64,000 nucleotides of DNA from a virus (IMGVR_UViG_3300036982_001423), one strand, 5' to 3'; shown: positions 19,068-35,583, counted from the first letter of the stretch. The notes: generated by a model not told the origin, from the letters alone. Numbers and translations: made by a program.

Positions 19068-19226
19068 ACTTTTTTGTTGCTTTGTGTATATACATACACA
19101 AAACGAACACACCGATCACCCCGGTAAAAAAGCATTCAACAGAACAGCCATGAGAACACAGCGCACGACCAGAACGGGAACCCCCGCAAAACGGTCACAG
19201 CGCACGTTTATAGGAGGATCAACAGC

Positions 19227-19604
19227 ATGAGCCACATAACAACCGTAAGCACTAAAATAGTGCTTAAAAACGAGCAGATGATTAAGAACGCACTCACCGT
19301 AATGAGTAAGCAATTTGAGGGCATGACCTTTCAAAAAATGGATGAAAGCACCATTATGGTGAGATACGCAAAAATTGAGAACTACCAGACACACGGAAAC
19401 CTCAGGTTCATTAAGAACCCCGCCGGTATTTGGGAGATGCAGCTAGATACGTGGATGTGCGACGCGGAGATCGCTAAAGTCAGAGAAGCGTTTTTCGTGC
19501 AGTATCAGACCGCCGCAGTATCTTCATATCTGGCACAGAAAGGATATTCGACTACCAAGAAGAACGACGGCAAAAACGTAATCCTTTCCGCAGTGAGGTA
19601 CTAA
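19227..19604 (+). CDS. hypothetical protein
   Basis: SD AGGAGGATCAACAGC-ATG. Confidence 0.6.
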   Translation: MSHITTVSTKIVLKNEQMIKNALTVMSKQFEGMTFQKMDESTIMVRYAKIENYQTHGNLRFIKNPAGIWEMQLDTWMCDAEIAKVREAFFVQYQTAAVSSYLAQKGYSTTKKNDGKNVILSAVRY

Positions 19605-19605
19605 A

Positions 19606-19812
19606 ATGTCAGAACAACTCACAATAACGATCACCCCCGACGGAATAAAAATCGATGCAGCCGGATACACCGGGAATAAATGTATAGTGGAGCAAGATGC
19701 ATTAGAGAAGTTTTTACTTCAGACCGCCGGAGTTAGCACACGGAACAAAAACCAGAAAAGGAAACTTGAAACCAGCTATCAGAAAGCCCCCGGTAATCAG
19801 GTGAGGTATTAA
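19606..19812 (+). CDS. hypothetical protein
   Basis: coupled ORF; ends VRY like preceding gene. Confidence 0.5.
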   Translation: MSEQLTITITPDGIKIDAAGYTGNKCIVEQDALEKFLLQTAGVSTRNKNQKRKLETSYQKAPGNQVRY

Positions 19813-19814
19813 TT

Positions 19815-20579
19815 ATGGCAGTACCAACGGAAACATTAGACAGATCAATTTTTGTTGTCGGTATAAAAATGGGAAGCCCGAACCAGAGTAAAGGTGAAGA
19901 TCTGGACGAGTATGTTAGACAACTCACATACAAGAAACCGAAAGCTGAACGGTTACAGATCGGGAAAGTCCGGCAATCGATCAACGTAGTGGTTGACGGA
20001 ACATGCATGAAATTTTTCAACGTGAAGATCACCAACCAAGCCGGAAAAGAAACCCTTGAACGGGAATGCGCCCGAGCTGACGCAGAGATGAAGAAGATCG
20101 ACAGCACTATGCATGTAACCCCGGTCTTTTTCGAGGTAAAAGTATCATCCATGAACGCCGGTAACATGTTTGATCAAATGAAAGAACAGCTAAGCGTCCA
20201 AGTCCATCAAAAGGTACTGGATAGAGTAGAGAGCGCAATTGAGAACAGCCGGAACCCCGACGGCACGTATAAACCGATGACCGGCAAAACCCGCACAGCC
20301 TTGATCGCTATGTTAGACAAGATCAAGGAGATCAACGTATTAGGTGACGACGAAGTAGGAAACCGCATTGAAACCATGAAAGGACAGATCACCGAGGGCA
20401 GTTTAATCCCTATGCGAGATGAAATTTTAGCCTTGTTGGAGGATGTACAGGGCAGCGAGAACCTTGAAATCAGCCCCGACCAGACCGAGAGCGAGCACGA
20501 CCCGGACGAAAAGGAATACGAAGCAAAACCCTTCAAACCGAGCGCACAGGACGAGATCGCATTAGAGGATCTCATCTAA
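19815..20579 (+). CDS. hypothetical protein with acidic C-terminus
   Basis: 254-aa ORF. Confidence 0.6.
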   Translation: MAVPTETLDRSIFVVGIKMGSPNQSKGEDLDEYVRQLTYKKPKAERLQIGKVRQSINVVVDGTCMKFFNVKITNQAGKETLERECARADAEMKKIDSTMHVTPVFFEVKVSSMNAGNMFDQMKEQLSVQVHQKVLDRVESAIENSRNPDGTYKPMTGKTRTALIAMLDKIKEINVLGDDEVGNRIETMKGQITEGSLIPMRDEILALLEDVQGSENLEISPDQTESEHDPDEKEYEAKPFKPSAQDEIALEDLI

Positions 20580-20601
20580 TTTTTCGGAGAGATAAAGCAC
20601 C

Positions 20602-20787
20602 ATGATAGGAATATGCAAAAGCCGGAAGTCAGGACACACGGACACCGAGATCGACACCCTAAAAGAATGGAGATGTTGGAAATGTGTAGATATCGCATTC
20701 ATTAATCCGGAGGATAGAATTAAAGCTCAGCAAAAAGACTATTTTGCTGTTTGTGAGATGTGCCGGGATTTTACCCCGAAACCCTGA
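20602..20787 (+). CDS. small Cys-rich protein
   Basis: SD GGAGAGATAAAGCACC-ATG; C...C...CWKC...CEMC. Confidence 0.5.
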   Translation: MIGICKSRKSGHTDTEIDTLKEWRCWKCVDIAFINPEDRIKAQQKDYFAVCEMCRDFTPKP

Positions 20788-21072
20788 TATCCCCTCTATC
20801 ACCCGGCGTACCCTTAAGGGTACGCCTACCCTCTTTCCCCCCAAACAATGCATATACACAAAGGACTTTTTAAAGCACCTTTAGGGTTTAATCCCGTTGT
20901 GTATATCCCCGTATTATCGAAGTTAGTACGGAACGTTTTACACGCTGTTAAGCGTTATATTGTCCTTATGACGGTTCACTGCCGTATAAGGATTTTCAAA
21001 AGTATAGCTATTCGACCAACCCCGCACCCGACCCGTATAAAGGTCACAGTGCCCGTTTATTTGAGGATAATC

Positions 21073-21507
21073 ATGAGATCAAGCAAAGAGTTTAAATTAG
21101 AACCAACCAAGACCGGAACCCCCGCCTTGCCTGCCGGAGGAGGAGCTTATACGAATAAGTACTCAGCCCACACCGTACTATCAGCCGACCTTACTCATAA
21201 AACAGCCTTGTTTATCAAGACTGCCGGTAATCTGGCATGTATGAACGACCAAGCGATTATACCGATCCAGCAGGGGGATATCATAGTAATCTTACAGGGT
21301 CTTAAACCCGCGAGCGACCAGAACCCCGCAGCTAATATCGATGCATGGAAGATCACCGAGATCACCCCGACCACTGCAATAGGCGAGAGTATTGAGATCA
21401 CACACAACCAGATCCCTTATTCCGTGATAGAAGGATCACAAATCTACCACAACCGGGACGGCAGTTATTTCTGTTTATCCCCAGTAACAGGAGATAAAAA
21501 TGTCTGA
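21073..21507 (+). CDS. hypothetical protein (start chosen at ATG 21073 with SD GAGGAT; track ORF extends to 20848)
   Basis: Upstream extension has no SD and overlaps conserved motif region. Confidence 0.5.
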   Translation: MRSSKEFKLEPTKTGTPALPAGGGAYTNKYSAHTVLSADLTHKTALFIKTAGNLACMNDQAIIPIQQGDIIVILQGLKPASDQNPAANIDAWKITEITPTTAIGESIEITHNQIPYSVIEGSQIYHNRDGSYFCLSPVTGDKNV

Positions 21508-21916
21508 TATTTCAATGGGTATTAACCCTGAAATGGTTGAAATGCTCTTTAAAGAGTTGCAGATCAAGCCGGATCGCTATGACGCGATTTACGAGGTTTT
21601 AACCGAAGCAATCGCAATGTCAGGAGAAGAACCCCCAAACCCTTTCGATATGTTACAAAGGTTTATCGCCAAGACCTCAAAGGCTAATGAGCTAGCCTTC
21701 TTATGCTTCATGGCAGGCACGATCACCGGAACAATTGGCACACTCATCCAGAGCCACCAGAACACCCCGGAAATGTTGAAAAAAGCGATGATCTTTGGAG
21801 CTACACACTCCGAAGACGTACAAAAATTAGCCGCTGAAAATGGGTATAATCTCCCAACAGCAACCGCAGCAGAAGCCAAAAAGGTAAAACACCCCGACGA
21901 TATAATGTACGGATAA
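21500..21916 (+). CDS. hypothetical protein
   Basis: ATGTCTGA overlap; 138 aa. Confidence 0.55.
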   Translation: MSDISMGINPEMVEMLFKELQIKPDRYDAIYEVLTEAIAMSGEEPPNPFDMLQRFIAKTSKANELAFLCFMAGTITGTIGTLIQSHQNTPEMLKKAMIFGATHSEDVQKLAAENGYNLPTATAAEAKKVKHPDDIMYG

Positions 21917-22015
21917 TGTACGGATAATCATAATATTTTTGCACACCCCTAAAAACCATATACTTTTTGGGTCAGACCGAGAAGGATATTTTCAATATGT
22001 ATATGCAGGAGAATA

Positions 22016-22057
22016 CACGATCACGCCGACAAGAGGCACGATCACGGAGGAATAATT
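22016..22057 (+). promoter_or_regulatory. conserved leader CACGATCACGCCGACAAGAGGCACGATCACGGAGG (copy 2)
   Basis: See 17397..17435. Confidence 0.55.
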
Positions 22058-22219
22058 ATGAGCATAACAGATGAAAAAATTACACAATACATGATAGGAG
22101 GATTTTTCCTCATCATATTATTTGTTGGTCTTTGGAATGTAGCAGGAACAAATGGTATTTCAATCGCATGTTTCACCCTACTGATCCGCCAATGTTTAGA
22201 CCTAATGACAAAACCATAA
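22058..22219 (+). CDS. small membrane protein (53 aa)
   Basis: Strong SD GGAGGAATAATT-ATG; hydrophobic helices; below track cutoff. Confidence 0.55.
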   Translation: MSITDEKITQYMIGGFFLIILFVGLWNVAGTNGISIACFTLLIRQCLDLMTKP

Positions 22220-22299
22220 AAAATACGATCACAGGAGGATAACCAGATGATAACCCACCCATTTTTCACCACGCACAACGACGGAGAAAATTTTTACCG

Positions 22300-22566
22300 C
22301 ACCCACGAATGCCGAGCAACCGAGCCACAGATCCAATGCCAAGTTCCGATCCGCAGACGAATGCCGAGTAGTTTTGGGGAACACGGCATTGGCTCCACAG
22401 GTAAGGCATTAGGCTTCCATCCTGTATATGCAACACGAACTCCACTGGCGAGTCAAGGTATTTCGTGTGGAACACGGCATTAGGCTTCGACGGAATGGTA
22501 AAGAACACGCCCAGAATACCCCAGACAATGGGTATGTATATGCACAAGACATTAGGCATTACGACG
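22300..22566. repeat. cluster of GGCATTAGG / AATGCCGAG motifs in non-coding region
   Basis: At least 8 copies of the GGCATT/AATGCC core; same motif in opposite orientation at 15649..15816. Confidence 0.55.
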
Positions 22567-22576
22567 GAGGTTCAAA

Positions 22577-22780
22577 ATGTCAGACATAAGTAAAGGACTA
22601 AAATTAGTGCAAGAAACGGACGCACAGATTTATCAAAAAGTAAAGGAACTCAAAGACCTTATGTATGAGCGCAGAACTCTAATGGAAATGATCAAAGAGA
22701 AAGCGCCGGACGACTGGTTAGATCAATTTCTCACTACGGGTAATCAGATCTCAATAGAGGATATTGAGATATTCATTTAA
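22577..22780 (+). CDS. hypothetical protein
   Basis: SD CGGAGGTTCAAA-ATG. Confidence 0.55.
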   Translation: MSDISKGLKLVQETDAQIYQKVKELKDLMYERRTLMEMIKEKAPDDWLDQFLTTGNQISIEDIEIFI

Positions 22781-22986
22781 CTATTTCGGTTCATAGTTCC
22801 GAGGTTAAATATAACCGGGATAATACCCCGGCAGTATAGCAGGAGAACATCATTTTCCCTCAAAATATCAATATATTTTTCATACCTGTATATACATCGG
22901 TTCAATCCGAGGGCAGGTTTTCAGAGTATCGTAGGAGAACACAGCGCACAACTCAAAGAAAGTTAAGCGCACGTTAAAGGAGATTG

Positions 22987-23628
22987 ATGTATATGCACAG
23001 ACAAGAACCTATCGAAACTATTGTGGAACCCGCCCATTTCCGGGCAGGAGTTTACCACCAAACACAAACATTGAAAATCTATCAGGACGACGATCCGCAA
23101 AACCCCCGGACGGAATGGGATAACTTCGGGAAAATGGTATGCTTCCACAAAAGATACCAGTTAGGGGATGTAGGACACGGCATTAGTGAGGACGATTTTT
23201 CTGCATGGTCGGAACTGGAACAGTATTTGATTGAGGAGAAGGGTGCGGCTGTAATTCTGCCAATTTATATGTATGATCATTCCGGGCTATCAGTGAATAC
23301 GACAGGATTTTCGTGTTCATGGGATAGCGGTCAGATTGGATATACATATATAACCTGCAAAGAAATACTGGAGAATTGGGGGGAGAACCAGATCACAAAG
23401 GAACTCCGTCAGAAAGCCCATGATCTTTTAGTTGGAGAAGTCCAGAACTACAACGATTATCTCACCGGAAATGTATATGGATATATTCTGGAAGATGAGA
23501 ACGGTAACGAACTCTGGTCATGTTGGGGATATTCCGGGGATGGCGCAGTCGAGCAGATCAAATCCGAACAACTGTATATACACAACTCACAGAAATCCAC
23601 AGGAACTCAAGTTAATGCAGAGGCGTAA
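22987..23628 (+). CDS. hypothetical protein (MYM start)
   Basis: SD AAAGGAGATTG-ATGTATATG. Confidence 0.6.
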   Translation: MYMHRQEPIETIVEPAHFRAGVYHQTQTLKIYQDDDPQNPRTEWDNFGKMVCFHKRYQLGDVGHGISEDDFSAWSELEQYLIEEKGAAVILPIYMYDHSGLSVNTTGFSCSWDSGQIGYTYITCKEILENWGENQITKELRQKAHDLLVGEVQNYNDYLTGNVYGYILEDENGNELWSCWGYSGDGAVEQIKSEQLYIHNSQKSTGTQVNAEA

Positions 23629-23632
23629 AACT

Positions 23633-23848
23633 ATGGTTCAAAATTCTGAATGTGAAACACAAACACTCTATTTTCTCATTGAACAGGGTAAGGGTAAAAT
23701 CCTCAAAGCAGACCCCCTTCTAAAAAATATCGCAAAGAAATGGAATAACTCAAAACCGGGATCAAACTTTGTATTAAAAGGGCATGTAACCTTTGAAAAC
23801 AATAAACTGAAACCGTCAGAGCTAGCATTAGCAATAGATGGAGTGTAA
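23633..23848 (+). CDS. hypothetical protein
   Basis: first ATG after upstream stop. Confidence 0.5.
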   Translation: MVQNSECETQTLYFLIEQGKGKILKADPLLKNIAKKWNNSKPGSNFVLKGHVTFENNKLKPSELALAIDGV

Positions 23849-23851
23849 ATT

Positions 23852-24136
23852 ATGGCGACAGATGCTTATGATGTTTGGGATACCCTGTATGAAATCATGT
23901 GCGTACCCTGCAATCATCACGATTATTGCCACGGTACAGAAGATGAGGCAAATGATCAACAGATGATCGTATGTATGGGAAAAGGGCAGATCACCCGTAG
24001 TATCAAACAGCAGGTTGAAAAAGACGACATCGACAACCCGAAAGGAGTATGCCCAGAATGTGGTACAGAACTAAGAGAAGTCGTTGATCTTGCCAGTGGT
24101 AAACAGGTTTATGAATGTCCTGAATGTGGCGAATAA
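23852..24136 (+). CDS. Zn-ribbon protein
   Basis: CPECGTEL...CPECGE. Confidence 0.6.
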   Translation: MATDAYDVWDTLYEIMCVPCNHHDYCHGTEDEANDQQMIVCMGKGQITRSIKQQVEKDDIDNPKGVCPECGTELREVVDLASGKQVYECPECGE

Positions 24137-24274
24137 CTCCGGTATATATATACATTTTTCAGATACGCGGAAACAGCCGACCCCCCACAACACCCCGTTG
24201 TTCCGCCCGGTTATGGCGATGTATATACATTTTACAAATATTCAACGCATTTGGATTCGGAGAGATGATAACAC

Positions 24275-24565
24275 ATGAAAACAGCAGTTGTAAGTTCCAA
24301 AGACCTATTCGACAGAAAGAAAAACCCCACCCTATGCTTATCGGCATTGAGGGGTACAGGACAATGCCACAGATGCGACAAGATCTCAAAAGTGATCACA
24401 CATACCCCATTGAACGAATTACTATTATTATTAAAATGCAAACCCCATATATCACCTGAAAATATGGCGTTTATGAAAGAGTATGATGAACACTTACAAA
24501 AAAGAACCGTATTGGAGAATGAGATCGATCTACTCCGCAAACGGTTATCGCTGAAAGGAGAGTAA
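24275..24565 (+). CDS. hypothetical protein
   Basis: 96-aa ORF. Confidence 0.5.
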   Translation: MKTAVVSSKDLFDRKKNPTLCLSALRGTGQCHRCDKISKVITHTPLNELLLLLKCKPHISPENMAFMKEYDEHLQKRTVLENEIDLLRKRLSLKGE

Positions 24566-24569
24566 GAAC

Positions 24570-24824
24570 ATGGTAACATGCTACTCAAAACAATATCTGG
24601 ATGAAAATGAGATCATCGACAAGACATTCTATTCATCCAAGAACCCGGACGCAAAGAGGGAACGGGATACACTGGCACGACAGTTAAGAAAAGAGGGATG
24701 GAAAGTAACGACGAAACTCTACCATTTCTATGATTTTGGCGGGAGTGCTACATATACATTATTCGCAGAGCGGAAGAAAACCCCGACTGTAACTGGTGTG
24801 CAGCAAGAAATAGCAGTTGTGTGA
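24570..24824 (+). CDS. hypothetical protein
   Basis: 84-aa ORF. Confidence 0.55.
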   Translation: MVTCYSKQYLDENEIIDKTFYSSKNPDAKRERDTLARQLRKEGWKVTTKLYHFYDFGGSATYTLFAERKKTPTVTGVQQEIAVV

Positions 24825-25129
24825 TGTATATGCAGTTATCAAACTATTTCGAGAGGGCAGTCCCAAAAGAAGAAGATCCGACGTTAAGCAGTCCGATCAT
24901 ATATCGTGCTATCCAATTTGAAACAAAACTATCACCAGAGAGTATCAAAGAGATCGCCAGAGATGTTTATCCGGGCATAGAAAATCTAATAACAATTATC
25001 GGAGTAACCCCCAAAAGGATAACCCGTTTCAGGGTATCAGTGACGGATGCAAGCACATTCGCATTCGCTAATCTCATATACCAGTGGATGAATTGGGAAA
25101 ACAACGACAGCAAACAGAATAAATGGTGA
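24824..25129 (+). CDS. hypothetical protein (MYM start)
   Basis: GTGATGTATATG context. Confidence 0.55.
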   Translation: MYMQLSNYFERAVPKEEDPTLSSPIIYRAIQFETKLSPESIKEIARDVYPGIENLITIIGVTPKRITRFRVSVTDASTFAFANLIYQWMNWENNDSKQNKW

Positions 25130-25135
25130 GTAAAA

Positions 25136-25372
25136 ATGAACGTAAAAACTTTAATCGAACTCTTATCCCACGAAAATCCAGACCAAGAGGTATATTTTTC
25201 GTTTGACAGTCATGATCGTTGGGGAACCACGTTAGCCGCAAAAGTAACCGAGATCGGAGAAACAGAAATTCAATATACCGCATACCACGAATGTTTCTGC
25301 GTACCGAAATCAGACGAATCTAATGATAGTGAGAATGACGACAAACAAAAAACCGTAATCCTCCTATCCTAA
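25136..25372 (+). CDS. hypothetical acidic protein
   Basis: 78-aa ORF. Confidence 0.55.
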   Translation: MNVKTLIELLSHENPDQEVYFSFDSHDRWGTTLAAKVTEIGETEIQYTAYHECFCVPKSDESNDSENDDKQKTVILLS

Positions 25373-25382
25373 CAAGGAGTGA

Positions 25383-25964
25383 ATGTATATGTATCCCGTA
25401 CACACAAAAGGCGCGAGCCGAGTATATTCAATCGACGGCAAAGAAATTATCAGCGTTGCATTTTTCGATGAACACGGCATTGTCGCACAAACGACATTCG
25501 GATGGCTTGAAACCGGAGATCCGGATTCAACGTATCGGAAAGATGTTGAGGCATTGGAGTTAGAGAAAACCCCCAAGCGCAAACTGAAACCAGAGTTTTC
25601 AGAGATGTATATACAGCAACAGCCATTCATCGCCAGAGGTGAAGTTGCGATTGGGGGAACCGTAAAAAATACCGGATATATCTTGTATCTACCCTACCTG
25701 AAAGACGATTGGATGGTGGGTAAACAAACCGAAATTAGCGGTATTTATCAATCAGAGTATATCATTTACCACAACCCCAAGAACGGATATATTATTACTA
25801 CTTACAATGGAGGAAAACAGATTAAAGAGAATGTGGATTTTGTGGAACGGATCGCCATCCTATTAAAACCGATGGGGATACGTGAGAACACATTGAACTC
25901 TATATACATCATCGAGAACCGTCAAGAGATCGAGAAGTTGATCAGGGATTTCCATCATGCCTGA
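25383..25964 (+). CDS. hypothetical protein (MYM start)
   Basis: SD AAGGAGTGA-ATGTATATG. Confidence 0.6.
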   Translation: MYMYPVHTKGASRVYSIDGKEIISVAFFDEHGIVAQTTFGWLETGDPDSTYRKDVEALELEKTPKRKLKPEFSEMYIQQQPFIARGEVAIGGTVKNTGYILYLPYLKDDWMVGKQTEISGIYQSEYIIYHNPKNGYIITTYNGGKQIKENVDFVERIAILLKPMGIRENTLNSIYIIENRQEIEKLIRDFHHA

Positions 25965-26109
25965 CACATACATGATCGTGAGATGGTACGATGCAGACCG
26001 ACCAAACGAGATCAAACAACGCGGTCTAACATTAGAACAGGCAAAACGACATTGTATTGTGAAAGGTACAGGCGCAGGATGGAAAGAAGGATTTACAAAG
26101 GAGAATTAA
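25957..26109 (+). CDS. small hypothetical protein (50 aa)
   Basis: fills gap; overlaps upstream stop. Confidence 0.4.
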   Translation: MPDTYMIVRWYDADRPNEIKQRGLTLEQAKRHCIVKGTGAGWKEGFTKEN

Positions 26110-26110
26110 A

Positions 26111-26617
26111 ATGAGTACCAGATGCAACATTATTATTAAGGATGAGAGTAAAGACAAGTTGATTTTTTACCGTCATTCAGACGGATACCCGGAGGGTACA
26201 TTACCGACCCTAAAAAAGTTTATGAGCTGGGTAGAAAATAGCAAGATCAGGAACAACGTACCGCAAGCCGCCGGTTGGCTGATCATGATTGGTGCAACAG
26301 AGTACGGGCGTGTATATGTAGGTGGCGGGAAATACGAGCAGAAACCCTCACTCACCGAACCACAGACCGATCTTGATCACATCACTGGATGGCAAGTAGG
26401 GGCATACGAACCGACGACGGATATCCACAGTGATATAGAATATCTATATACACTGGACTTAATCACACTCACAATCACAATCCAAAAGGTGACCGGAAAA
26501 AACAAATACAAAACGATTGATACGATCAAAGATTTCAGCGAACCGAAACCAGAACCCACACAGGCAGAAGTATTAGCCTCCTACAACCAAGATCCGGAAG
26601 CATTGGAGATCATATAA
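26111..26617 (+). CDS. hypothetical protein
   Basis: SD AAGGAGAATTAAA-ATG. Confidence 0.6.
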   Translation: MSTRCNIIIKDESKDKLIFYRHSDGYPEGTLPTLKKFMSWVENSKIRNNVPQAAGWLIMIGATEYGRVYVGGGKYEQKPSLTEPQTDLDHITGWQVGAYEPTTDIHSDIEYLYTLDLITLTITIQKVTGKNKYKTIDTIKDFSEPKPEPTQAEVLASYNQDPEALEII

Positions 26618-26877
26618 TGTCGAAATATCAATTTTGTAAGGGCTGCGAGCATATCAGCACGATAAAATTACGTGGTATCCATTCATACCACGTAGATCAT
26701 ATAGACTGCCCGGCACGTTTCAACCCGTATGAACCGATTATTGATAATCAGGACAAATCACAGCGAAACCCCCATGCCTGCCCGAAACATGAGCGTTTCA
26801 TGTTGATGGAACAGATGAAAAAGACGGGATACAAACCACCGGAACTGGTTAGTCTATCACCACCCGACGAAACCTAA
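26617..26877 (+). CDS. Cys/His-rich protein
   Basis: CKGCEH...H..HVDHIDC...HACPKH. Confidence 0.55.
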   Translation: MSKYQFCKGCEHISTIKLRGIHSYHVDHIDCPARFNPYEPIIDNQDKSQRNPHACPKHERFMLMEQMKKTGYKPPELVSLSPPDET

Positions 26878-26977
26878 AATTTTTCTATGTGTATATACAG
26901 TAGAATCCCACCAGCGTTGTGTAGTCCCCGAACCAGCAGAACGACGGAGAGGCAACACTGAAAGGGTTAGGAGATGA

Positions 26978-27196
26978 ATGTATATGGAGTTTCCAAAAGA
27001 TGCAACGACGGAAGATAAGCAATTCTTAAAACAATGTTATCTTGACAATCTATTATTAGCGAGATCGCAATCCTATGAACGGATTAAGAAATTAAGGGCT
27101 AAAATTAAAGAAATATTAATCTTTATTTCAGAGGACAAACAAGAGATCGAACAACTCTCAAAAGAGATCGCAGAGGTTGAAGGTACGGAGATTTAG
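26978..27196 (+). CDS. hypothetical protein (MYM start)
   Basis: SD TTAGGAGATGA-ATGTATATG. Confidence 0.55.
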   Translation: MYMEFPKDATTEDKQFLKQCYLDNLLLARSQSYERIKKLRAKIKEILIFISEDKQEIEQLSKEIAEVEGTEI

Positions 27197-27199
27197 GCA

Positions 27200-27502
27200 T
27201 TGGTGATAAAAATGAAAGACGGTGAACGGATATTTCTCACATGCAAGTCAAAAGATTGCACCAGATCAGTTACAAACAAACGATGCACCTTATCACTGGT
27301 ATTATTCAATAACGCCGACGGCAAATTACTTGCATTAGACCTCAACAACCGCAAGTTTTGCACATTAGAATGTGATACCCCTCTTTGGAAGGTCAGCCCA
27401 AATAAACCCGGCAGAAAGAAATTATTGGCAGAGAATAAGAAAGCGAATATCGATCTTGACCTGTTAGACTTAATCGGTGAAACGGGATTGGAGATCACAT
27501 GA
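27200..27502 (+). CDS. Cys-containing protein with C-terminal LDLIGETGLEIT tag (family of 3)
   Basis: C-terminus matches those of 42550..43179 and 53166..53720. Confidence 0.6.
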   Translation: MVIKMKDGERIFLTCKSKDCTRSVTNKRCTLSLVLFNNADGKLLALDLNNRKFCTLECDTPLWKVSPNKPGRKKLLAENKKANIDLDLLDLIGETGLEIT

Positions 27503-27693
27503 TACAAGGAGGACGATGCCACAACTTAAAGTGTAAAGAATGGGTGTGGTATGATACAAACACAAAGGAAATAACGATCCCATGTCAGAATTGCGGTAAT
27601 CCATTCCCAGTAGCTGAGATATTAGAAAGAATACGGATCGATGATGAAAAATACGACCAGAAACACAAGAAGTCGAAACGGGATTGGAAATAA
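27499..27693 (+). CDS. Zn-ribbon protein
   Basis: CHNLKC...CQNCG. Confidence 0.55.
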   Translation: MIQGGRCHNLKCKEWVWYDTNTKEITIPCQNCGNPFPVAEILERIRIDDEKYDQKHKKSKRDWK

Positions 27694-27694
27694 C

Positions 27695-27859
27695 ATGATG
27701 CTTTTTGGAATTACAGACGACGAAATTGAGATTATCATATCCGCATTACATACAACAGACCCGGATAAAAGTTTAAATGCAGTAAAAACACTTGAAAATA
27801 TCCTATTTACCCGACAGATCACAAAAGATACAATCATGGAGGTAATAAATCATGACTGA
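27695..27859 (+). CDS. hypothetical protein
   Basis: ATGATG after upstream stop. Confidence 0.5.
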   Translation: MMLFGITDDEIEIIISALHTTDPDKSLNAVKTLENILFTRQITKDTIMEVINHD

Positions 27860-28055
27860 AATACCCGAAAAAGAATACCAAGAAATTATAACGTTAAGTG
27901 AACGCATTAAGCGGAGAGGGTGGGAACAAGACGACGATTTGAAAAACTTAACTAATCTACTCCACGCTTTACATGGGGAAGGGATCAGAGGGCGGGAATA
28001 TACCCCCTCCGGCAAACCATCGGTGTTTGTAAATGGTATATGGGTGGAGAGATAA
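27852..28055 (+). CDS. hypothetical protein
   Basis: coupled ORF. Confidence 0.5.
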   Translation: MTEIPEKEYQEIITLSERIKRRGWEQDDDLKNLTNLLHALHGEGIRGREYTPSGKPSVFVNGIWVER

Positions 28056-28056
28056 C

Positions 28057-28281
28057 ATGACAGATAAACAACCCCTGACAGACAGAATGAAATTAAGGAT
28101 ACAAGCCCTATCCGCATTAAAAAACGCACTATTACCGGGTTTTTGTGAAGGTATGGTATGTGATCAAACCTGCCCGTTATATATCCACAAATATCTTCAC
28201 AAACGAAATGAACCCTGCGAGTGGATGAAAACGTATGAAGCGATAGACCGCATGGAACTCATCAAACATGAAGGTGACTGA
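28057..28281 (+). CDS. hypothetical protein
   Basis: ATG 2 nt after upstream stop. Confidence 0.5.
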   Translation: MTDKQPLTDRMKLRIQALSALKNALLPGFCEGMVCDQTCPLYIHKYLHKRNEPCEWMKTYEAIDRMELIKHEGD

Positions 28282-28517
28282 TGTATATGGATATAGAAAA
28301 AGACTATGTAGATTTTGGCGAAGTGTGCCGTAACCAATTAAATATGCAATGTCAGTCAGGATATTACCGGCTAAAAGGACTACAAGGATATCCAGTTATG
28401 GGTGACGGATTGAGGGTAATAGGAAATGATTTTAATTATCATTCTCTTAAAATTCATAAAGACGATATCCAGAAATTCAAGGACAGGATCGACGCATACA
28501 ACAAGAGATACGAGTGA
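28281..28517 (+). CDS. hypothetical protein (MYM start)
   Basis: TGATGTATATG. Confidence 0.55.
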   Translation: MYMDIEKDYVDFGEVCRNQLNMQCQSGYYRLKGLQGYPVMGDGLRVIGNDFNYHSLKIHKDDIQKFKDRIDAYNKRYE

Positions 28518-28807
28518 TGTATATGTATCGCGAAGCCCAAGTCCCGATTAGTCCCACAGATTTCCATGAACCGGAAAAAGTAAGGGCAAAGATCAACCCT
28601 ACTCAATACATACTCGTCAACCCGCAGAACGGACACATCCACGCACAGGGTAGTTTACCGACAGTTGCGGCGGTATGGGGTATTGAACGCGAATTAGGCA
28701 ACGACTTGAAATTAGAAGTCAGGGAATTGTACCTGAAAGATCTTCGTACTGTAACCGAAGAAGAATTAAACTACGAAGTTGAACTGAAACGGCGCAGGGA
28801 GAGATGA
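28517..28807 (+). CDS. hypothetical protein (MYM start)
   Basis: GTGATGTATATG. Confidence 0.55.
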   Translation: MYMYREAQVPISPTDFHEPEKVRAKINPTQYILVNPQNGHIHAQGSLPTVAAVWGIERELGNDLKLEVRELYLKDLRTVTEEELNYEVELKRRRER

Positions 28808-29218
28808 ATGTATATGCAGAACTCAAATGGCAACACTGGGCAGGAACGAAGTCTGGAAAATCCAATACCCGATCCGCTTGATACTACTATCTCGGCATTG
28901 AAACACGAAAGCGACCTGAAACGATGGAAATATATTGAGCGATTAGCGGCATTTGAACACGACCAGTGGATCGGATATTCCATGTCGATCTTACCCGCAT
29001 TTGACGAGTATATTACGGTATTCAACGGTTTAATTGATCATTACAATTTAACCCCAAAAGACCCGTTATACAAAACGGTAAAACGGTTAGATGAAGAATA
29101 CCGGGAACGTAACCGCAAATGGGCTGAATGTCGGTATAGTTTCAGCAAATTACCGTTTGAACAGAAAGAAAAGTTCCGGTATATGGGAAGGCAAGCTTAC
29201 GAGAGGATGATCAAATGA
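28808..29218 (+). CDS. hypothetical protein (MYM start)
   Basis: GAGATGAATGTATATG. Confidence 0.6.
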   Translation: MYMQNSNGNTGQERSLENPIPDPLDTTISALKHESDLKRWKYIERLAAFEHDQWIGYSMSILPAFDEYITVFNGLIDHYNLTPKDPLYKTVKRLDEEYRERNRKWAECRYSFSKLPFEQKEKFRYMGRQAYERMIK

Positions 29219-29361
29219 GTGGTATTCAAGAACCCCCGGATAATTATTACTTGCCGGACGAAGATTTCCGGTTGATGGAGAGCCTGTATATACAGACGCG
29301 AAAACAAGAACGGGCAGAAGCAGAGTATCTGCTCAATCACGCATATCAACAGAGAAACTAA
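29215..29361 (+). CDS. small hypothetical protein (48 aa)
   Basis: ATGA overlap. Confidence 0.45.
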   Translation: MSGIQEPPDNYYLPDEDFRLMESLYIQTRKQERAEAEYLLNHAYQQRN

Positions 29362-29841
29362 ACTATATATACACTCATAAAACGAGTCGTTCTTCTATGA
29401 AGTTTGGACTCAAATGGCTCCAAATTTTGATGTATATACACAAACTTTGGCAAACGAGTTCGAGGGTCGTTGGGGGAACACAAGATATTTCTTTTTTGAG
29501 GGTGCATATAAATTAACACTCCCGTAAGGTAGCAGCCAAGCCTATCTCACTTTGGATGAGAAAACCCCGGCGCGAATCCGGGCGGGAGAATGGGATCATG
29601 CAGGAGCGTTACGCTCTCAATGCATTCCCGTTTAAAACATGATTCACGGCAATTGGTAAGACCCTGATGATCTAAAAAGATGTATGTGAGATGGTATAAA
29701 TTATATGAGAGATTGTTGATGAACGCTAACCCGATAGGAGTACTACTATCAGGGTGTGTTTGTTTCATCCGGCTTGTGGTTCGCTACCACATCCCGGATT
29801 TTACCCGTTAATGGGTTTTCTTTTTAAAAGGAGATATTATT

Positions 29842-30201
29842 ATGAGGACATGCATCCACTGTAACGTAGAAAAAGATACCACCGAATTTTATAGGATGAA
29901 AAAGGACAGTAAAGGTAAACAATTGTGGTGTAAGGACTGTCAGAATGAGTATGCGAATACAAGGTATCAGTGGAATTTAGCCAATGTTCCAAACTATCTA
30001 AAAATACGGAATGAATACCAGAAAGAATATTCCCGCAAACGGCGCAGAGCCGCAGGATTACCGGAGCGGGGAGTTCGTGGTGTATATACAGGAGTTGTCT
30101 GTACTATGATCAAGACCCATCACGAAGAATTAAAAAATGATCCGGAACATCTTACGACAGAGTTCATACAGAAAATATTGGGTAGAAAATGTAACCAATA
30201 A
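29842..30201 (+). CDS. Zn-ribbon protein
   Basis: SD AAAAGGAGATATTATT-ATG; CIHCN...CKDCQ; followed by T7 run. Confidence 0.6.
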   Translation: MRTCIHCNVEKDTTEFYRMKKDSKGKQLWCKDCQNEYANTRYQWNLANVPNYLKIRNEYQKEYSRKRRRAAGLPERGVRGVYTGVVCTMIKTHHEELKNDPEHLTTEFIQKILGRKCNQ

Positions 30202-30278
30202 TTTTTTTCTTCCTCCGTATAAACCCCTATTAGTCAGAGTGATATGGTCTATGGGGGGTACAGGAGTTTGATAAGCAA

Positions 30279-31202
30279 ATGAACGATGAAGATTTAATCC
30301 CTTTTATTAAAAAGGCATTCGTACTAGGTATTGTAATTGTAATTATTATGTTCATTCTCTCATTGATCGGAGGGATAATCATTACAGTTCCCGCCGGTAG
30401 TGTGGGTGTGCAGAACACTTTTGGAGTTGTAGACACAAATCTGTTACAGCCGGGATTGCATATAAAAAACCCATTCACAGAAGTCATAAATTATAACACA
30501 CGCACCATGAAATATATGGATTACGGTAAATCAGACGTAGCGACAATCACAGCCTTATCAAACGACGGGCTTGAAACAACAATGGGTATCGCAGTCAATT
30601 ACCGGATTAACCCGGAGAAAGCGGCAGAACTATTCAAACGAGTAGGTACAGATTATTCCGGTGTGATTATGGTAAATCCAATTCATTCAGTACCCAGAGA
30701 TATGATCTCAAAATACGACACTAAAACGTTATATTCAGCATCACAAGAGGGCAGTTCAGACCGGACGAAACTGGAACGCGAACTATATGCGTCAGTAGCA
30801 GACCGCATTAACGAAATGGGTGTTAAAGATTCGATTATTATTGAACAGGTATCAATCCGTAACATAGATTTCGTACAGACGTATAAAGATTCAATTGCAT
30901 CGAAAATGAAAATGGATACCGAAATTCAACAGAAAAAACTTGAAGTTGATAAACAGGTAATGGAAGCGAAACGGGTATCCGCAGAAGCAGAGGGTACAGC
31001 GAACAAAGCCCGTATTGAAGCGCAAGGCAAAGCTGATGCTGCAAGGATCGAAGCGCAAGGTATGGCAGATGCAAGTGCGAAATTAAGTCTTGTATCGGAT
31101 AACTACATTAATTTGTACTACTTGCAGACCATGAAAGATAATCCGAAAGCGATATACATCCCCGTAGGTCAGAACGGATTACCGCTATTCAGATCAGTAT
31201 AG
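30279..31202 (+). CDS. SPFH/band-7 (stomatin/prohibitin/HflK-like) membrane protein
   Basis: N-terminal TM helix, band-7 core (GSVGVQNTFGVV...LQPGLHIKNPF), C-terminal coiled AEAEGTANKARIEAQGKADAARIEAQG repeats. Confidence 0.8.
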   Translation: MNDEDLIPFIKKAFVLGIVIVIIMFILSLIGGIIITVPAGSVGVQNTFGVVDTNLLQPGLHIKNPFTEVINYNTRTMKYMDYGKSDVATITALSNDGLETTMGIAVNYRINPEKAAELFKRVGTDYSGVIMVNPIHSVPRDMISKYDTKTLYSASQEGSSDRTKLERELYASVADRINEMGVKDSIIIEQVSIRNIDFVQTYKDSIASKMKMDTEIQQKKLEVDKQVMEAKRVSAEAEGTANKARIEAQGKADAARIEAQGMADASAKLSLVSDNYINLYYLQTMKDNPKAIYIPVGQNGLPLFRSV

Positions 31203-31283
31203 TAATATGAATACATATACATTTTTTGAATGATGACGGTTCAACCCGTATTATTTAATTAAACATATTAGGGAGTGTAAGAA

Positions 31284-31421
31284 ATGATGACAGAACCAGA
31301 AATTCGAGATATGCGGAACGAATATTGGACGATACTCGATAAAACGAAAAACAAAGTTGAACGTGAACGAATTGCATCGATCATACTGATATTCGACGTA
31401 GTATTAGGAGAACACGATTAA
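31284..31421 (+). CDS. small hypothetical protein (45 aa)
   Basis: SD AGGGAGTGTAAGAA-ATG. Confidence 0.45.
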   Translation: MMTEPEIRDMRNEYWTILDKTKNKVERERIASIILIFDVVLGEHD

Positions 31422-31422
31422 T

Positions 31423-31716
31423 ATGCCAGAAACCTGTGAGAACCGATGTGAGAATTGTGTATATGTAGATCGTGGATACGATGATTGCAGCCACATGATC
31501 CATTTCATATCGGATAGGTGTCCGATCTATGGAAATGCCGGGATATACATCCAAGTAAATCAAAGGCATCTGCCCATTGAAATGATCACTTGTTGGATCG
31601 GGTGCAACCATTTCAGGCTTGACGAAGAATACAAACAAAAATGTGAAGAAACCGAAAAGTTCATTGAAGGAATGAACAAACAATGGGATGAAACGAGGGC
31701 GAAGAATGACCAGTGA
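31423..31716 (+). CDS. Cys-rich protein
   Basis: CENRCENC...C..CP..C pattern. Confidence 0.55.
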   Translation: MPETCENRCENCVYVDRGYDDCSHMIHFISDRCPIYGNAGIYIQVNQRHLPIEMITCWIGCNHFRLDEEYKQKCEETEKFIEGMNKQWDETRAKNDQ

Positions 31717-32092
31717 TAAAGAACGATACATCAAATTCGCTGATAGTATGTTCAAATTACCGCAGGATATCAATCCCCCCGTTACCAAAGAGGAACTTGA
31801 TCGTATTGCAAGTGGATGTAACCCCTGCATACATGACAATTTGGTATGTGAGGCATGTCCGGAAAGCACCCCAAAATTAATTCAAGCCATTCTCTCCCGT
31901 CCAGACCCGCTTACAATACTGGAAGCGTGGACAGACCACGAGTACGATAAATTACAAAATTGTGATGGATATGAGGAAATCATAGACTTCCTAAAAAATC
32001 TGGTGTATTATCAGAAAAAGGTCATCAAACAACTCCGCACCAATCCAGAAGCGGTGCGACAACAGGGGATTAAAGAGGGATGGATACAATGA
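31706..32092 (+). CDS. Cys-containing hypothetical protein
   Basis: CNPCIHDNLVCEACPE. Confidence 0.5.
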   Translation: MTSDKERYIKFADSMFKLPQDINPPVTKEELDRIASGCNPCIHDNLVCEACPESTPKLIQAILSRPDPLTILEAWTDHEYDKLQNCDGYEEIIDFLKNLVYYQKKVIKQLRTNPEAVRQQGIKEGWIQ

Positions 32093-32508
32093 CAGCCACA
32101 GTAACAATTGAATTAACCGAAAAACAGGCGGGTGTAATAATGCAAGCATTAGAACTATACTCTCGTCTGAAAATGGGACAATTTGAAACTATCACAGATA
32201 GTTTTTTCATGGATACTTTCGACAAAGAATTAAAACGCCCGGTATTCGATCAGGATATGGCAAGGGCGTATTTGATGCAATCTCGTGCAGTGATATTCAC
32301 GGACTTACAACACGGTGCATATATAGGCATATCGCATACCGGAGAAAGTTCTAAAATATCATGGGATATTTACCAACAGTTGCGGCACGACCTATGTGTA
32401 TATACAAACCCGAAACCGTCAATTGATCAGAGAGGCAGATCGTATGACAAACCCCATGCGTTATCGAAACAACCATTACCGAGGGTAGTAATAACCGACG
32501 AGGAATAG
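32089..32508 (+). CDS. hypothetical protein
   Basis: ATGA overlap. Confidence 0.5.
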   Translation: MTATVTIELTEKQAGVIMQALELYSRLKMGQFETITDSFFMDTFDKELKRPVFDQDMARAYLMQSRAVIFTDLQHGAYIGISHTGESSKISWDIYQQLRHDLCVYTNPKPSIDQRGRSYDKPHALSKQPLPRVVITDEE

Positions 32509-32509
32509 A

Positions 32510-32854
32510 ATGTCGCACAGATACTTAAAAATTCGTAGCTGTAACGAATGCCCGAAAATAAAAAACAATTCGTATTCATTACCGTTTTGTAACCAACCGG
32601 GCATATCCGCAGTATTAATCCTAAAAGATTTAAGCAGTATTCCGGCAGACTGCCCGTTAGAAACTGAGTATGATATCTGCACACAGATCAAGACGAAGTT
32701 TGCCGACCAGATACTTGAATATCTAATACCGAAACGGGAACGAATATCACGCATATCGCCGTCCTCTTTAGGCGTTCTTGACAGTATTATTGTAATGATC
32801 CAGAAGATGAAAGAGAGTGAAAAAAATGGAACAGATAAAGATAATTTGGCTTGA
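32510..32854 (+). CDS. Cys-containing hypothetical protein
   Basis: CNECPK...C...C. Confidence 0.5.
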   Translation: MSHRYLKIRSCNECPKIKNNSYSLPFCNQPGISAVLILKDLSSIPADCPLETEYDICTQIKTKFADQILEYLIPKRERISRISPSSLGVLDSIIVMIQKMKESEKNGTDKDNLA

Positions 32855-35566: not shown

Positions 35567-35583
35567 CCTTTTTTGGTGGTATT

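What the first reader, a model, noticed from the sequence alone, without database searches (positions are those of the whole stretch)
22984..28820. Recurrent ATG-TAT-ATG (MYM) translation starts embedded in the same GATGTATATGCA-type motif
At least seven genes (22987, 24824, 25383, 26978, 28281, 28517, 28808) begin with Met-Tyr-Met, encoded by (G)ATGTATATG(C/G). The same sequence also occurs in non-coding positions (15908, 16121, 22000, 56338). This ties the over-represented palindrome family to start sites. It suggests either a shared promoter or initiation context reused by duplication, or selection for the palindrome even at start codons, giving tandem in-frame ATGs.
Basis: seen in the sequence. 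Interest (0 to 1): 0.55.

Follow-up and report, generated by a model that had tools for sequence, protein, structure and literature searches.

The report
Start codons built into a repeated palindrome
Seven genes of this uncultured phage-like genome do open with ATG-TAT-ATG, because their start codon sits inside a copy of a 10-base palindrome (TGYATATRCA) that is about 130 times more common than chance across the genome. The "Met-Tyr-Met" reading is mostly a by-product of that DNA motif, not a conserved protein feature.

Summary
ATGTATATG occurs 27 times against 1.1 expected. Seven of the 17 plus-strand copies open ORFs of 72-213 codons, all between 22,987 and 28,808.

They belong to a dispersed palindrome family, TGYATATRCA: 50 copies against 0.39 expected, with no strand bias and weakly symmetric T-run/A-run flanks. 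The family also marks four related metagenomic contigs (L004, L007, L112, L113).

Across these five loci, 19 of 150 copies have their own ATG as a called start codon, against 0.75 expected.

Orthologous genes keep the palindrome at the start, but the first ATG is often missing (TACATATGCA in L004 and L113). Shine-Dalgarno spacing favours the second ATG in six of seven genes. So MYM is mostly incidental. The first ATG forms when TG follows the A of a preceding TGA. That TGA is a real stop codon in four of the seven genes.

Duplication of a shared 5' region is not supported.

The palindrome itself looks DNA-selected. It is kept at syntenic intergenic sites. At one in-gene site the amino acids vary only as the motif's degeneracy allows.

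My best guess (inferred, not shown) is an operator-like binding site for a dimeric protein, placed where it costs least: intergenic DNA and the SD-to-ATG spacer. Promoter, RNA-level and HIP1-like readings remain open.

The parts
22988..22997 (+). Palindrome copy TGTATATGCA at the start of the 22987/22993-23628 gene. ATG1 is 22987-22989, ATG2 is 22993-22995, SD GGAG is 22979-22982.
   Evidence: Orthologues: L007 ATGTATATGCAC; L004 and L113 TACATATGCA(T/C), which have the second ATG only. The gene caller on the identical contig starts at ATG2. SD aligned spacing is -2 for ATG1 and 3 for ATG2; the genome mode is 2-3.
24825..24834 (+). Palindrome copy TGTATATGCA at the start of the 24824-25129 gene. 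The upstream gene's stop overlaps it (TGATG).
   Evidence: Orthologues in L004 (9485) and L113 (2007) have TACATATGCA with only the second ATG.
25384..25393 (+). Loose family copy TGTATATGTA at the start of the 25383/25389-25964 gene. SD is GGAGTGA.
   Evidence: aligned spacing -1 for ATG1, 4 for ATG2. The gene caller on L003 starts at ATG2.
26979..26988 (+). One-mismatch copy TGTATATGGA at the start of the 26978/26984-27196 gene.
   Evidence: The L007 orthologue starts GGAGGATATATATGAAT, and its Met aligns with ATG2. Aligned spacing is -1 for ATG1 and 4 for ATG2.
28282..28291 (+). One-mismatch copy TGTATATGGA at the start of the 28281-28517 gene. The upstream stop overlaps it (TGATG).
   Evidence: This is the one case where ATG1 (spacing 1) fits the SD better than ATG2 (spacing 7).
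28518..28527 (+). Loose family copy TGTATATGTA at the start of the 28517-28807 gene. The upstream stop overlaps it (TGATG).
28809..28818 (+). Palindrome copy TGTATATGCA at the start of the 28808-29218 gene. The upstream stop TGA abuts it.
   Evidence: The L007 orthologue has GTGTATATACAG, so only the first position can be a start there (GTG; the second is ATA).
23573..23582 (.). In-gene copy TGTATATACA (frame L-Y-I-H), 33-52 nt upstream of the next gene's start.
   Evidence: It is kept at the orthologous position in L112, L113, L007 and L004 as xTG-YAT-ATR-SAx, while the amino acids vary L/V/M - Y/H - I/M - H/D/E. The pattern [LM][YH][IM][HQEN] appears in 17 homologues whose tails are otherwise variable.
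19085..19094 (.). Intergenic copy TGTATATACA after the AAA-ATPase gene, 9 nt downstream of a hairpin plus T-run.
   Evidence: A copy sits at the syntenic position in L004 (3920) and L007 (2985), although the surrounding intergenic sequence differs. The terminator-like hairpin is at 19040-19065.
20849..20858 (.). Intergenic copy TGCATATACA upstream of the 21073-21507 gene.
   Evidence: Syntenic copies lie in L004 (5501) and L007 (4776).
22887..22896 (.). Intergenic copy TGTATATACA at the head of the 22987 gene's leader.
   Evidence: As RNA it is predicted to pair with the start-codon copy in a 16-bp helix (MFE -34 kcal/mol, z = -4.0).
2876..63643 (.). The whole dispersed family: 50 strict copies of TGYATATRCA and 76 loose copies of TRYATATRYA.
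   Evidence: - Counts: 50 observed against 0.39 expected under a first-order Markov model.
- Location: 21 of 50 lie in non-coding or boundary DNA, which is about 10-15% of the sequence. Of the 29 in genes, 20 are in the frame encoding (V/A)-Y-(T/A).
- Strand: no bias in the asymmetric variants, 13 vs 13 and 7 vs 6.
- Spacing: Poisson-like, CV 1.0. Sparse in 1-15.9 kb, about 1 per kb from 16 kb onward.
- Gaps: 20 of 37 intergenic gaps of 40 nt or more contain a copy.

Best explanation
SHOWN. The seven 'MYM' starts are copies of a lineage-specific 10-bp palindrome (TGYATATRCA, more loosely TRYATATRYA) lying in one fixed register over the translation start. The left half-site TGTAT fills the spacer after the Shine-Dalgarno sequence (GGAG/GGTG...TGA). 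The central AT plus the G of the right half-site form the start codon. CA constrains only the second codon. The upstream ATG appears whenever TG follows an A, here the A of the preceding TGA. That TGA is the upstream gene's stop in four of the seven genes and may also extend SD pairing. In most of these genes the second ATG is the conserved and better-spaced start, so Met-Tyr-Met is largely an ORF-calling by-product. One or two genes (28281, 28808) may really start at the first.

INFERRED. The palindrome is a DNA-level element, most likely the binding site of a dimeric DNA-binding protein: an operator-like site of a global regulator, virus- or host-encoded. Copies accumulate where they cost least, namely intergenic DNA just after T-runs and ahead of gene leaders, the SD-to-ATG spacer where the ATG comes free, and tolerant codon frames inside genes. 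Binding at these sites would control transcription entering the downstream gene, by repression or roadblock. At start-embedded copies it would do so right at the gene's 5' end.
For: Over-representation: 27 vs 1.1 and 50 vs 0.39.

Symmetry:
- Perfect palindrome plus equal numbers of the two asymmetric variants on the coding strand (13/13 and 7/6 in the window; 23/18, 13/12 and 11/10 pooled).
- Symmetric flanks: T avoided at -1 and A avoided at +10, with a T-run at -7 to -9 and an A-run at +16 to +18.
- The palindrome is extended to 20-28 bp at some sites in relatives.

Functional constraint at the DNA level:
- Syntenic intergenic copies in the window, L004 and L007 despite diverged flanks.
- An in-gene copy kept as xTG-YAT-ATR-SAx while the amino acids change only in ways the motif's degeneracy allows.

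Placement:
- Four-fold enrichment in non-coding DNA, and a frame bias towards the least costly frame.
- 20 of 37 intergenic gaps carry a copy.
- 19 of 150 copies lie in the exact start register against 0.75 expected.

Start-codon choice.

TGTATATACA fits TGTA-N2-TACA, the operator consensus of the winged-helix regulator HutC (PMC12977541). Unrelated viral contigs carry clustered arrays of TTGTATATACAA that look like operator or iteron arrays.
Against: - No binding protein was identified. No GntR-type or other matching regulator was found among about 180 ORFs scanned; only a 399-aa wHTH protein (4472-5671) and one HTH_12 hit turned up.
- 58% of strict copies are inside genes with Poisson-like spacing, which suits a genome-wide signal as well as an operator network.
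- Apart from the start register, position relative to gene starts is only mildly non-random: 33 observed vs 22.5 expected at 30-90 nt upstream.
- Variants such as TGCATATGCA and TACATATACA depart from TGTA-N2-TACA.
- In L113 most start-embedded copies lose the right-hand CA, which weakens a strictly palindromic requirement at starts.
- There are no transcription, translation or binding data.
Confidence: 0.42

Rival explanations
1. The palindrome is the core of a promoter or initiator used by a viral or host RNA polymerase. Each copy launches transcription of the next gene, and start-embedded copies would give very short or leaderless mRNAs.
For: - Intergenic copies sit just after T-runs or terminator-like hairpins and 55-225 nt ahead of the next start, often before a conserved leader.
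- More than half of the larger intergenic gaps carry one.
- A 6-kb gap-free gene array (8.5-14.5 kb) has a single copy at its head and none inside.
- There is a mild excess 30-90 nt upstream of starts.
Against: - The motif and its flanks are symmetric, and the asymmetric variants show no orientation bias even though almost all genes are on one strand.
- There is no fixed distance to starts.
- It does not fit sigma-70 geometry, and sigma-70-like sites are not enriched: 45 found vs 41 expected.
- A start-embedded copy would place the SD outside its own transcript.
- No RNA polymerase gene is seen in the window.
Confidence: 0.2
2. The start-linked copies are an RNA-level translation signal. This could be an A/U-rich, unstructured SD-to-AUG spacer. 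Alternatively, the self-complementary copies on one polycistronic mRNA could pair with each other and mask or unmask start codons, or serve as a target for a translational regulator or RNase.
For: - In L113 about 9 of 22 genes, and in L112 6-7 of 28, start inside TRYATATG, often without the palindromic CA.
- The 22887 copy is predicted to pair with the 22988 start copy over 16 bp (z = -4.0).
- From memory, not tested here: the efficient T7 gene 10 leader reads GGAGATATACATATG.
Against: - Copies are equally frequent in both orientations, and most are far from any start.
- The predicted leader pairing is not seen for the 26978 gene (z = -0.2). The leader architecture is not conserved in L004 or L007.
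- A 10-nt A/U-rich duplex is weak.
Confidence: 0.15
3. It is a highly iterated palindrome in the manner of cyanobacterial HIP1. It would be kept at high density over the whole genome by a methylation- or repair-linked bias, or for a DNA transaction unrelated to gene expression (replication, packaging, recombination at module boundaries, self-recognition). Its presence at starts would then only reflect where a copy is cheapest.
For: - About 130-fold over-representation, about 1 per kb, Poisson-like spacing, and presence in coding and non-coding DNA with the codon-compatible frame preferred. This matches descriptions of HIP1 (15- to 300-fold; PMC5861425, PMC4390886).
- An N6/N4 DNA methyltransferase gene (35750-36478) has copies at 35788, 36430 and 36488.
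- Neighbouring genes differ between relatives while the junction motif stays.
Against: - Density is uneven: 4 strict copies in the first 16 kb, none in 8.5-15.9 kb, and about 1 per kb afterwards.
- More than half of the larger intergenic gaps carry a copy, and copies are kept at syntenic intergenic positions ahead of the same genes. Both point to a gene-linked role.
- The methyltransferase's specificity is unknown.
- The GC-rich part of L004 (10.6-20.6 kb), which looks like host or cargo DNA, has no copies.
Confidence: 0.15
4. The seven starts descend from duplication of one 5' gene segment, or MYM is a conserved N-terminal peptide.
For: A shared stretch of about 17 nt, GAGAT-TGA-ATGTATATG.
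Against: - There is no similarity beyond that stretch, and the proteins are unrelated.
- Orthologues lack the first Met-Tyr.
Confidence: 0.02

Closest known systems
Stoperators of cluster A mycobacteriophages (L5 repressor sites)
   Same: One short motif is present in more than 20 copies across a phage genome. Copies lie at promoters and in short spaces between genes, and are used to silence transcription genome-wide (PMC9283540).
   Different: Stoperators are asymmetric 13-mers bound by a monomer, lie almost only in intergenic DNA, and are oriented with transcription. Here the motif is a palindrome without orientation bias, 58% of strict copies are inside genes, many copies overlap the start codon itself, and no repressor is identified.
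HIP1 (GCGATCGC), the highly iterated palindrome of cyanobacteria
   Same: A short palindrome, 15- to 300-fold over-represented, at about one per gene or kb, in coding and non-coding DNA, conserved, with unsettled function (PMC5861425, PMC4390886).
   Different: The sequence is different (A/T-rich). It is a property of a viral or extrachromosomal lineage rather than a demonstrated host-chromosome property. Its density is uneven, it is enriched at gene boundaries, and no link to a methyltransferase has been shown.
GntR/HutC-type operators (TGTA-N2-TACA)
   Same: The commonest form, TGTATATACA, matches the HutC consensus exactly. That consensus is a symmetric site for a winged-helix dimer with a large footprint (PMC12977541).
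   Different: No GntR-family gene was found in the window. Variants TGCA.../TACA... are common. There are dozens of dispersed copies instead of one or a few at a promoter.
Poxvirus late promoter TAAATG (recalled from memory, analogy only)
   Same: A transcription signal whose sequence contains the ATG used as the start codon of many genes.
   Different: It belongs to a eukaryotic virus and is directional and non-palindromic. Here the genes have Shine-Dalgarno sequences, and a promoter role for the motif is not supported.
Conserved boundary or linker sequences and promoter-stem-loop cassettes at module junctions of mosaic phages (recalled from memory)
   Same: A short repeated sequence sits at the junctions of many small accessory genes, and the neighbouring genes differ between relatives.
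   Different: No recombination breakpoints at the motif have been shown. Most copies are not at junctions.

Membership tests
L5-type stoperators | Many (>20) copies of one short motif dispersed over the phage genome | tested here: met
   50 strict and 76 loose copies in 64 kb.
L5-type stoperators | Asymmetric site whose orientation follows the direction of transcription | tested here: not met
   The motif is palindromic. Asymmetric variants are equally frequent in both orientations.
L5-type stoperators | Located in promoters and short intergenic spaces | tested here: inconclusive
   21 of 50 copies are in non-coding or boundary DNA (4-fold enriched), but 29 of 50 are inside genes.
L5-type stoperators | Cognate phage-encoded repressor | not testable with these tools
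   Only generic wHTH hits were found (4472-5671 and one HTH_12). There are no binding data.
HIP1-type highly iterated palindromes | Short palindrome over-represented by one to two orders of magnitude in coding and non-coding DNA | tested here: met
   50 vs 0.39 expected, in both compartments.
HIP1-type highly iterated palindromes | Contains the target of cognate orphan DNA methyltransferases | not testable with these tools
   An N6/N4 methyltransferase gene is present, but its specificity is unknown and there are no methylome data.
HIP1-type highly iterated palindromes | Property of the host chromosome as a whole | tested here: inconclusive
   The host is unknown. The GC-rich, host-like half of L004 has no copies. 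Density in the window is uneven.
GntR/HutC operators | Inverted repeat TGTA-N2-TACA | tested here: met
   23 of 50 strict copies are TGTATATACA. The others differ at positions 3 or 8. The consensus is from PMC12977541.
GntR/HutC operators | GntR-family regulator encoded with the sites | tested here: not met
   No GntR domain was found in about 180 window ORFs scanned with Pfam. A host-encoded factor or one encoded outside the window is not excluded.
Sigma-70-type promoter | -35 and -10 hexamers 16-18 nt apart, with A at position 2 and T at position 6 of the -10 | tested here: not met
   45 sites found against 41.3 in shuffles. No T/A preference appears at the required positions around the motif.
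Conserved N-terminal peptide / tandem start codons | Met-Tyr-Met kept in orthologues | tested here: not met
   Orthologues in L004 and L113 have TACATATG (no first ATG). 12 of 26 start-embedded copies lack any start codon at the first position.

The most novel reading that the evidence does not exclude
An uncultured phage clade may use one palindromic DNA site as a genome-wide control point that has been merged with the translation initiation regions. A single dimeric protein would then sit on the start codons and 5' boundaries of dozens of genes, up to about 40% of genes in relative L113. It would gate the whole early or accessory gene set at once, a symmetric, start-codon-embedded counterpart of stoperators. 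Alternatively, the copies may also act as a self-recognition or recombination signal that lets gene cassettes be swapped while keeping a ready-made ribosome-binding site.
Probability: 0.2. Interest if true: 0.7.

Novelty: new variant of a known kind. Interest (0 to 1): 0.45.

Why it matters
For annotation: in this clade the first ATG of ATGTATATG should not be taken as the start by default, and MYM N-termini in databases are probably two residues too long.

For biology: a 10-bp palindrome at about 1 per kb, kept across relatives from 39 to 53% GC and supplying the start codon of many genes, is an unusually clear case of a DNA-level signal shaping coding sequence and initiation regions. If its binding partner were found, it would give a handle on gene control in a phage group that is otherwise almost entirely ORFans.

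Tried and rejected
- Megablast of 24 kb against 50,697 phage records: no match.
- Relatives sought in IMG/VR by protein: none for the AAA ATPase. For the 22987 protein only distant ones without the motif.
- A conserved-leader DNA pattern in IMG/VR gave 22 chance hits without the motif.
- A two-copy motif pattern in IMG/VR returned unrelated contigs with clustered TTGTATATACAA arrays. This is useful as an analogy but they are not relatives.
- Rfam: no family in the window.
- tRNA scan: none.
- Tandem repeats: nothing relevant.
- Sigma-70 promoter scan: no enrichment.
- Regular spacing or pairing of copies: spacing is Poisson-like and close pairs are no more frequent than expected.
- Host identification is inconclusive:
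  - A 2.6-kb contig binned with a Patescibacteria MAG shares three genes but is 64% GC and lacks the motif.
  - The permease gene next to the L004 element gives only 23% identity hits, mostly to haloarchaeal megaplasmids.
  - Pfam hints are mixed, with some families I recall as mainly archaeal (VapB-like, several DUFs) alongside phage GP17, NUMOD3-HNH and endonuclease VII.
  - I considered an archaeal TATA-box reading. I set it aside because flanks and variants are symmetric, no BRE-like element is present, and a TATA box on a start codon would start transcription inside the gene.
- Literature full-text search for TGTATATACA and GTATATAC found no description of this motif in a virus.
- Duplication or paralogy of the seven 5' ends is rejected by alignment.

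Full report
WHAT THE WINDOW IS. The 64-kb window is about 40% G+C and A-rich on the + strand. It is packed with about 170 mostly small ORFs, nearly all on the + strand, each preceded by a Shine-Dalgarno sequence of the GGAGG/GGTGA type. Few products match anything. Those that do are an AAA ATPase (17331/17436-19067), a TnpB-like protein, an N6/N4 DNA methyltransferase, a Band-7 protein, HNH/NUMOD3 and endonuclease VII-like nucleases, a superinfection-exclusion protein and several zinc ribbons. It looks like an early or accessory region of an uncultured phage or similar element. It has no near match among 50,697 phage records. A Logan contig from run SRR11848694 is identical over 18,986 nt covering the finding, so the sequence is not an assembly quirk.

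THE OBSERVATION. ATGTATATG occurs 27 times (17 on +, 10 on -) against 1.12 expected from shuffles. Each opens an ORF of 72-213 codons at its 5' end. The ten other + strand copies open ORFs of 51 codons or fewer, except 23471, whose 125-codon ORF lies out of frame inside the 22987 gene. All seven lie within 5.8 kb (22,987-28,808) and none of the other roughly 145 genes starts this way. All seven are preceded by TGA, as TGATG or TGAATG. In four cases that TGA is the stop codon of the upstream gene. The cited non-coding copies exist at 16120, 21997 and 56336. The one near 15908 is ATGTATATACA.

THE FAMILY BEHIND IT. The 9-mer is one face of a 10-bp palindrome, TGYATATRCA.
- Counts: 50 copies against 0.39 expected under a first-order Markov model (TGTATATACA 23, TGTATATGCA 13, TGCATATACA 13, TGCATATGCA 1). 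A looser halo, TRYATATRYA, has 76 non-overlapping sites.
- Conservation within the motif: the outer T and A and the central ATAT are essentially invariant. Positions 2 and 9 tolerate change.
- Strand: the two asymmetric variants are equally frequent on the coding strand. In the window the counts are 13 vs 13 and 7 vs 6. Pooled with relatives they are 23 vs 18, 13 vs 12 and 11 vs 10.
- Flanks: also symmetric. T is avoided at -1 and A at +10, with a T-run at -7 to -9 and an A-run at +16 to +18. In relatives some copies sit inside perfect 20-bp or longer palindromes.
- Location: 21 of the 50 lie in non-coding or boundary DNA, which is roughly 10-15% of the sequence. Of the 29 inside genes, 20 use the frame that encodes (V/A)-Y-(T/A), the least costly reading.
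- Spacing: Poisson-like (CV 1.0), but density is uneven. There are four copies in the first 16 kb, none between 8457 and 15905, and about one per kb afterwards.
- Gaps: 20 of 37 intergenic gaps of 40 nt or more hold a copy, often 5-9 nt after a T-run.
If the seven start copies are removed, ATGTATATG is 10 on + and 10 on -. The start-linked copies are therefore an excess on top of a symmetric background.

RELATIVES. The product of the 22987 gene has about 900 homologues. Only the closest ones (55-80% identity) come from contigs that share the motif. Four such loci were read:
- L007 (JGI Ga0315287_10000921)
- L004 (ENA ERZ25039462, 53% G+C overall)
- L112 (JGI 3300048647)
- L113 (ENA ERZ27297473)
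They carry 0.6-2.2 loose copies per kb, while more distant relatives carry none. The motif is thus a trait of one clade and is kept across a wide G+C range.

IS THE LINK TO STARTS MORE THAN MOTIF DENSITY? Yes. Pooled over the five loci, 19 of 150 copies have their own ATG as a called start (register -1 or +5), against 0.75 expected (Poisson p about 2e-20). The 12-nt bin around starts holds 20 against 4.5. Elsewhere the relation to starts is weak: a dip at 10-30 nt and a mild excess at 30-90 nt upstream (33 vs 22.5). In L113 roughly 9 of 22 genes, and in L112 6-7 of 28, start inside TRYATATG. No copies on the opposite strand do so in those two loci. ORF-calling inflates this somewhat, because an in-frame upstream ATG is taken as the start. 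It cannot explain loci where the motif's ATG is the only candidate.

WHICH ATG? Three lines point to the second ATG in most genes.
1. Orthologues.
   - The 22987 gene starts ATGTATATGCAC in L007 but TACATATGCA(T/C) in L004 and L113.
   - The 24824 gene's orthologues in L004 and L113 also read TACATATGCA.
   - The L007 orthologue of the 26978 gene starts GGAGGATATATATG, with its Met aligned to ATG2.
   - Over the clade, 12 of 26 start-embedded copies have no start codon at the first position.
2. Homologous proteins begin either MYM(H/Q)... or directly M(H/Q)....
3. SD geometry. For 119 other window genes the aligned spacing peaks at 2-3 (range -1 to 5). ATG2 gives 3, 3, 4, 4, 7, 3, 4, whereas ATG1 gives -2, -1, -1, -1, 1, 3, -1.
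The exceptions are 28281, where ATG1 fits better, and 28808, whose L007 orthologue reads GTGTATATACAG and can only start at the first position. What is conserved at these starts is therefore the palindrome, not Met-Tyr-Met. The first ATG arises because the motif's TG follows the A of TGA. That TGA is the upstream stop codon in four genes, and in the duplex predictions it also extends SD pairing with the 16S rRNA tail.

IS THE PALINDROME SELECTED AS DNA? Two observations say so.
- Intergenic copies are kept at syntenic positions in the window, L004 and L007, after the AAA-ATPase gene and before the 21073 gene's orthologue. The surrounding non-coding sequence differs.
- The in-gene copy at 23573 is kept at the same place in five loci as xTG-YAT-ATR-SAx. 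The encoded residues vary L/V/M, Y/H, I/M, H/D/E, exactly the changes the motif's degeneracy allows. The rest of the C-terminal tail is not conserved, and the downstream gene differs between loci.

WHAT IT PROBABLY DOES. This part is inference. Symmetry of core, flanks and variant counts argues for recognition of double-stranded DNA by a dimer, rather than a directional promoter or an RNA signal. Enrichment in intergenic gaps, after T-runs and ahead of leaders, and the syntenic conservation ahead of particular genes argue for a role tied to gene expression. I therefore favour an operator-like site of a global regulator. The start register is explained by economy: five bases fall in the SD-ATG spacer, three are the ATG that is needed anyway, and only CA constrains codon 2. 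TGTATATACA equals the HutC/GntR operator consensus TGTA-N2-TACA (PMC12977541). Unrelated viral contigs show tight arrays of TTGTATATACAA, so this sequence is a plausible protein site. However, no GntR-type gene was found here. Confidence is about 0.4.

The rivals are as follows.
- A promoter core. This fits the position after T-runs and the single copy at the head of the 8.5-14.5 kb array. It is contradicted by the symmetry, the lack of sigma-70 geometry and the variable distances.
- An RNA-level initiation or masking element. The 22887 and 22988 copies are predicted to pair over 16 bp (z = -4.0), but this is not general.
- A HIP1-like iterated palindrome linked to methylation or to another DNA transaction (PMC5861425, PMC4390886). 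This fits the density and in-gene copies, but fits the uneven distribution and gene-linked conservation less well.
- Duplication of a common 5' segment. This is excluded.

COMPARISON WITH KNOWN SYSTEMS. The nearest functional analogue is the stoperator network of cluster A mycobacteriophages (PMC9283540). Those sites are asymmetric, oriented and intergenic, so this is not a member of that family. It resembles HIP1 in statistics but not in sequence, host range or demonstrated methylation link. I found no paper describing this motif in a virus.

VERDICT. The underlying palindrome system is a new variant of known multi-copy site systems, with its function still open. Interest is moderate.

Noticed in passing
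window 19150-19226 and 22933-22986 (degenerate copy before 21073); L004 about 3985-4030; L007 about 3010-3070 and 4800-4860: A conserved 5' leader, GAGAACACAGCGCAC - N15-45 - (A/T)AGCGCACGTT(T)A - AGGAGG - ATG, precedes several different genes and is kept in relatives. It has no Rfam match. It may be a protein-binding direct repeat or an RNA element.
   Followed up: partly
window 15622-17330 and 22300-22560; also L004 (CAATGCCGAG six times) and L112: A 1.7-kb non-coding, C-rich region carries many GGCATT/AATGCC repeats and a local shift in GC and AT skew, next to the only clear minus-strand gene (14530-15621). It looks like an origin or control region. The same repeat recurs at 22.3-22.56 kb.
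   Followed up: no
window 22875-23010: The leader of the 22987 gene is predicted to fold so that the upstream palindrome copy plus flank pairs over 16 bp with the spacer and both ATGs (MFE -34 kcal/mol, z = -4.0). Any two copies on one transcript are mutually complementary.
   Followed up: partly
window 1-15900: Palindrome density is much lower here: 4 strict copies, and none between 8457 and 15905. The gap-free gene array 8514-14529 has a single copy just upstream at 8457.
   Followed up: partly
L156 2738-2918, L230 793-962, L210 3090-3190, L203 1096-2782, L143 452-1137 (IMG/VR contigs): Unrelated viral contigs of 39-60% G+C carry tight arrays of (T)TGTATATACA(A). In L156 they recur every 21-22 bp. 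They look like iteron or operator arrays for an unidentified, apparently widespread DNA-binding protein.
   Followed up: no
window 35787-35813 and 56336-56362: Two copies open mini-ORFs that also begin MYMQ (MYMQKHAC*, MYMQVITF*). Copies at 35788, 36430 and 36488 bracket the DNA methyltransferase gene.
   Followed up: no
window 57855-57883 and 58204-58232: There are near-identical 20-nt upstream segments (c/ttaggtaacttc-c/a-gaggtatTTGA-A/T-TATG) before two neighbouring small ORFs, suggesting a local duplication.
   Followed up: no
L004 10640-20639: Directly after the 22987 orthologue the contig switches to 57-66% G+C. That part carries ABC-transporter, FtsX-like, glycosyltransferase and methyltransferase genes and no palindrome copies. 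It could be a host junction, captured cargo or a chimeric assembly. The permease's best plasmid hits are weak (23% identity) and mostly haloarchaeal.
   Followed up: partly
window 17331-19812; L087 (Patescibacteria MAG contig JBAZKI010000086.1): The three-gene block of the AAA ATPase, a 125-aa protein and a 68-aa protein (weak DUF2997 hit) is syntenic in L004, L007 and a 64% G+C contig binned with a Patescibacteria MAG. That contig lacks the palindrome.
   Followed up: no
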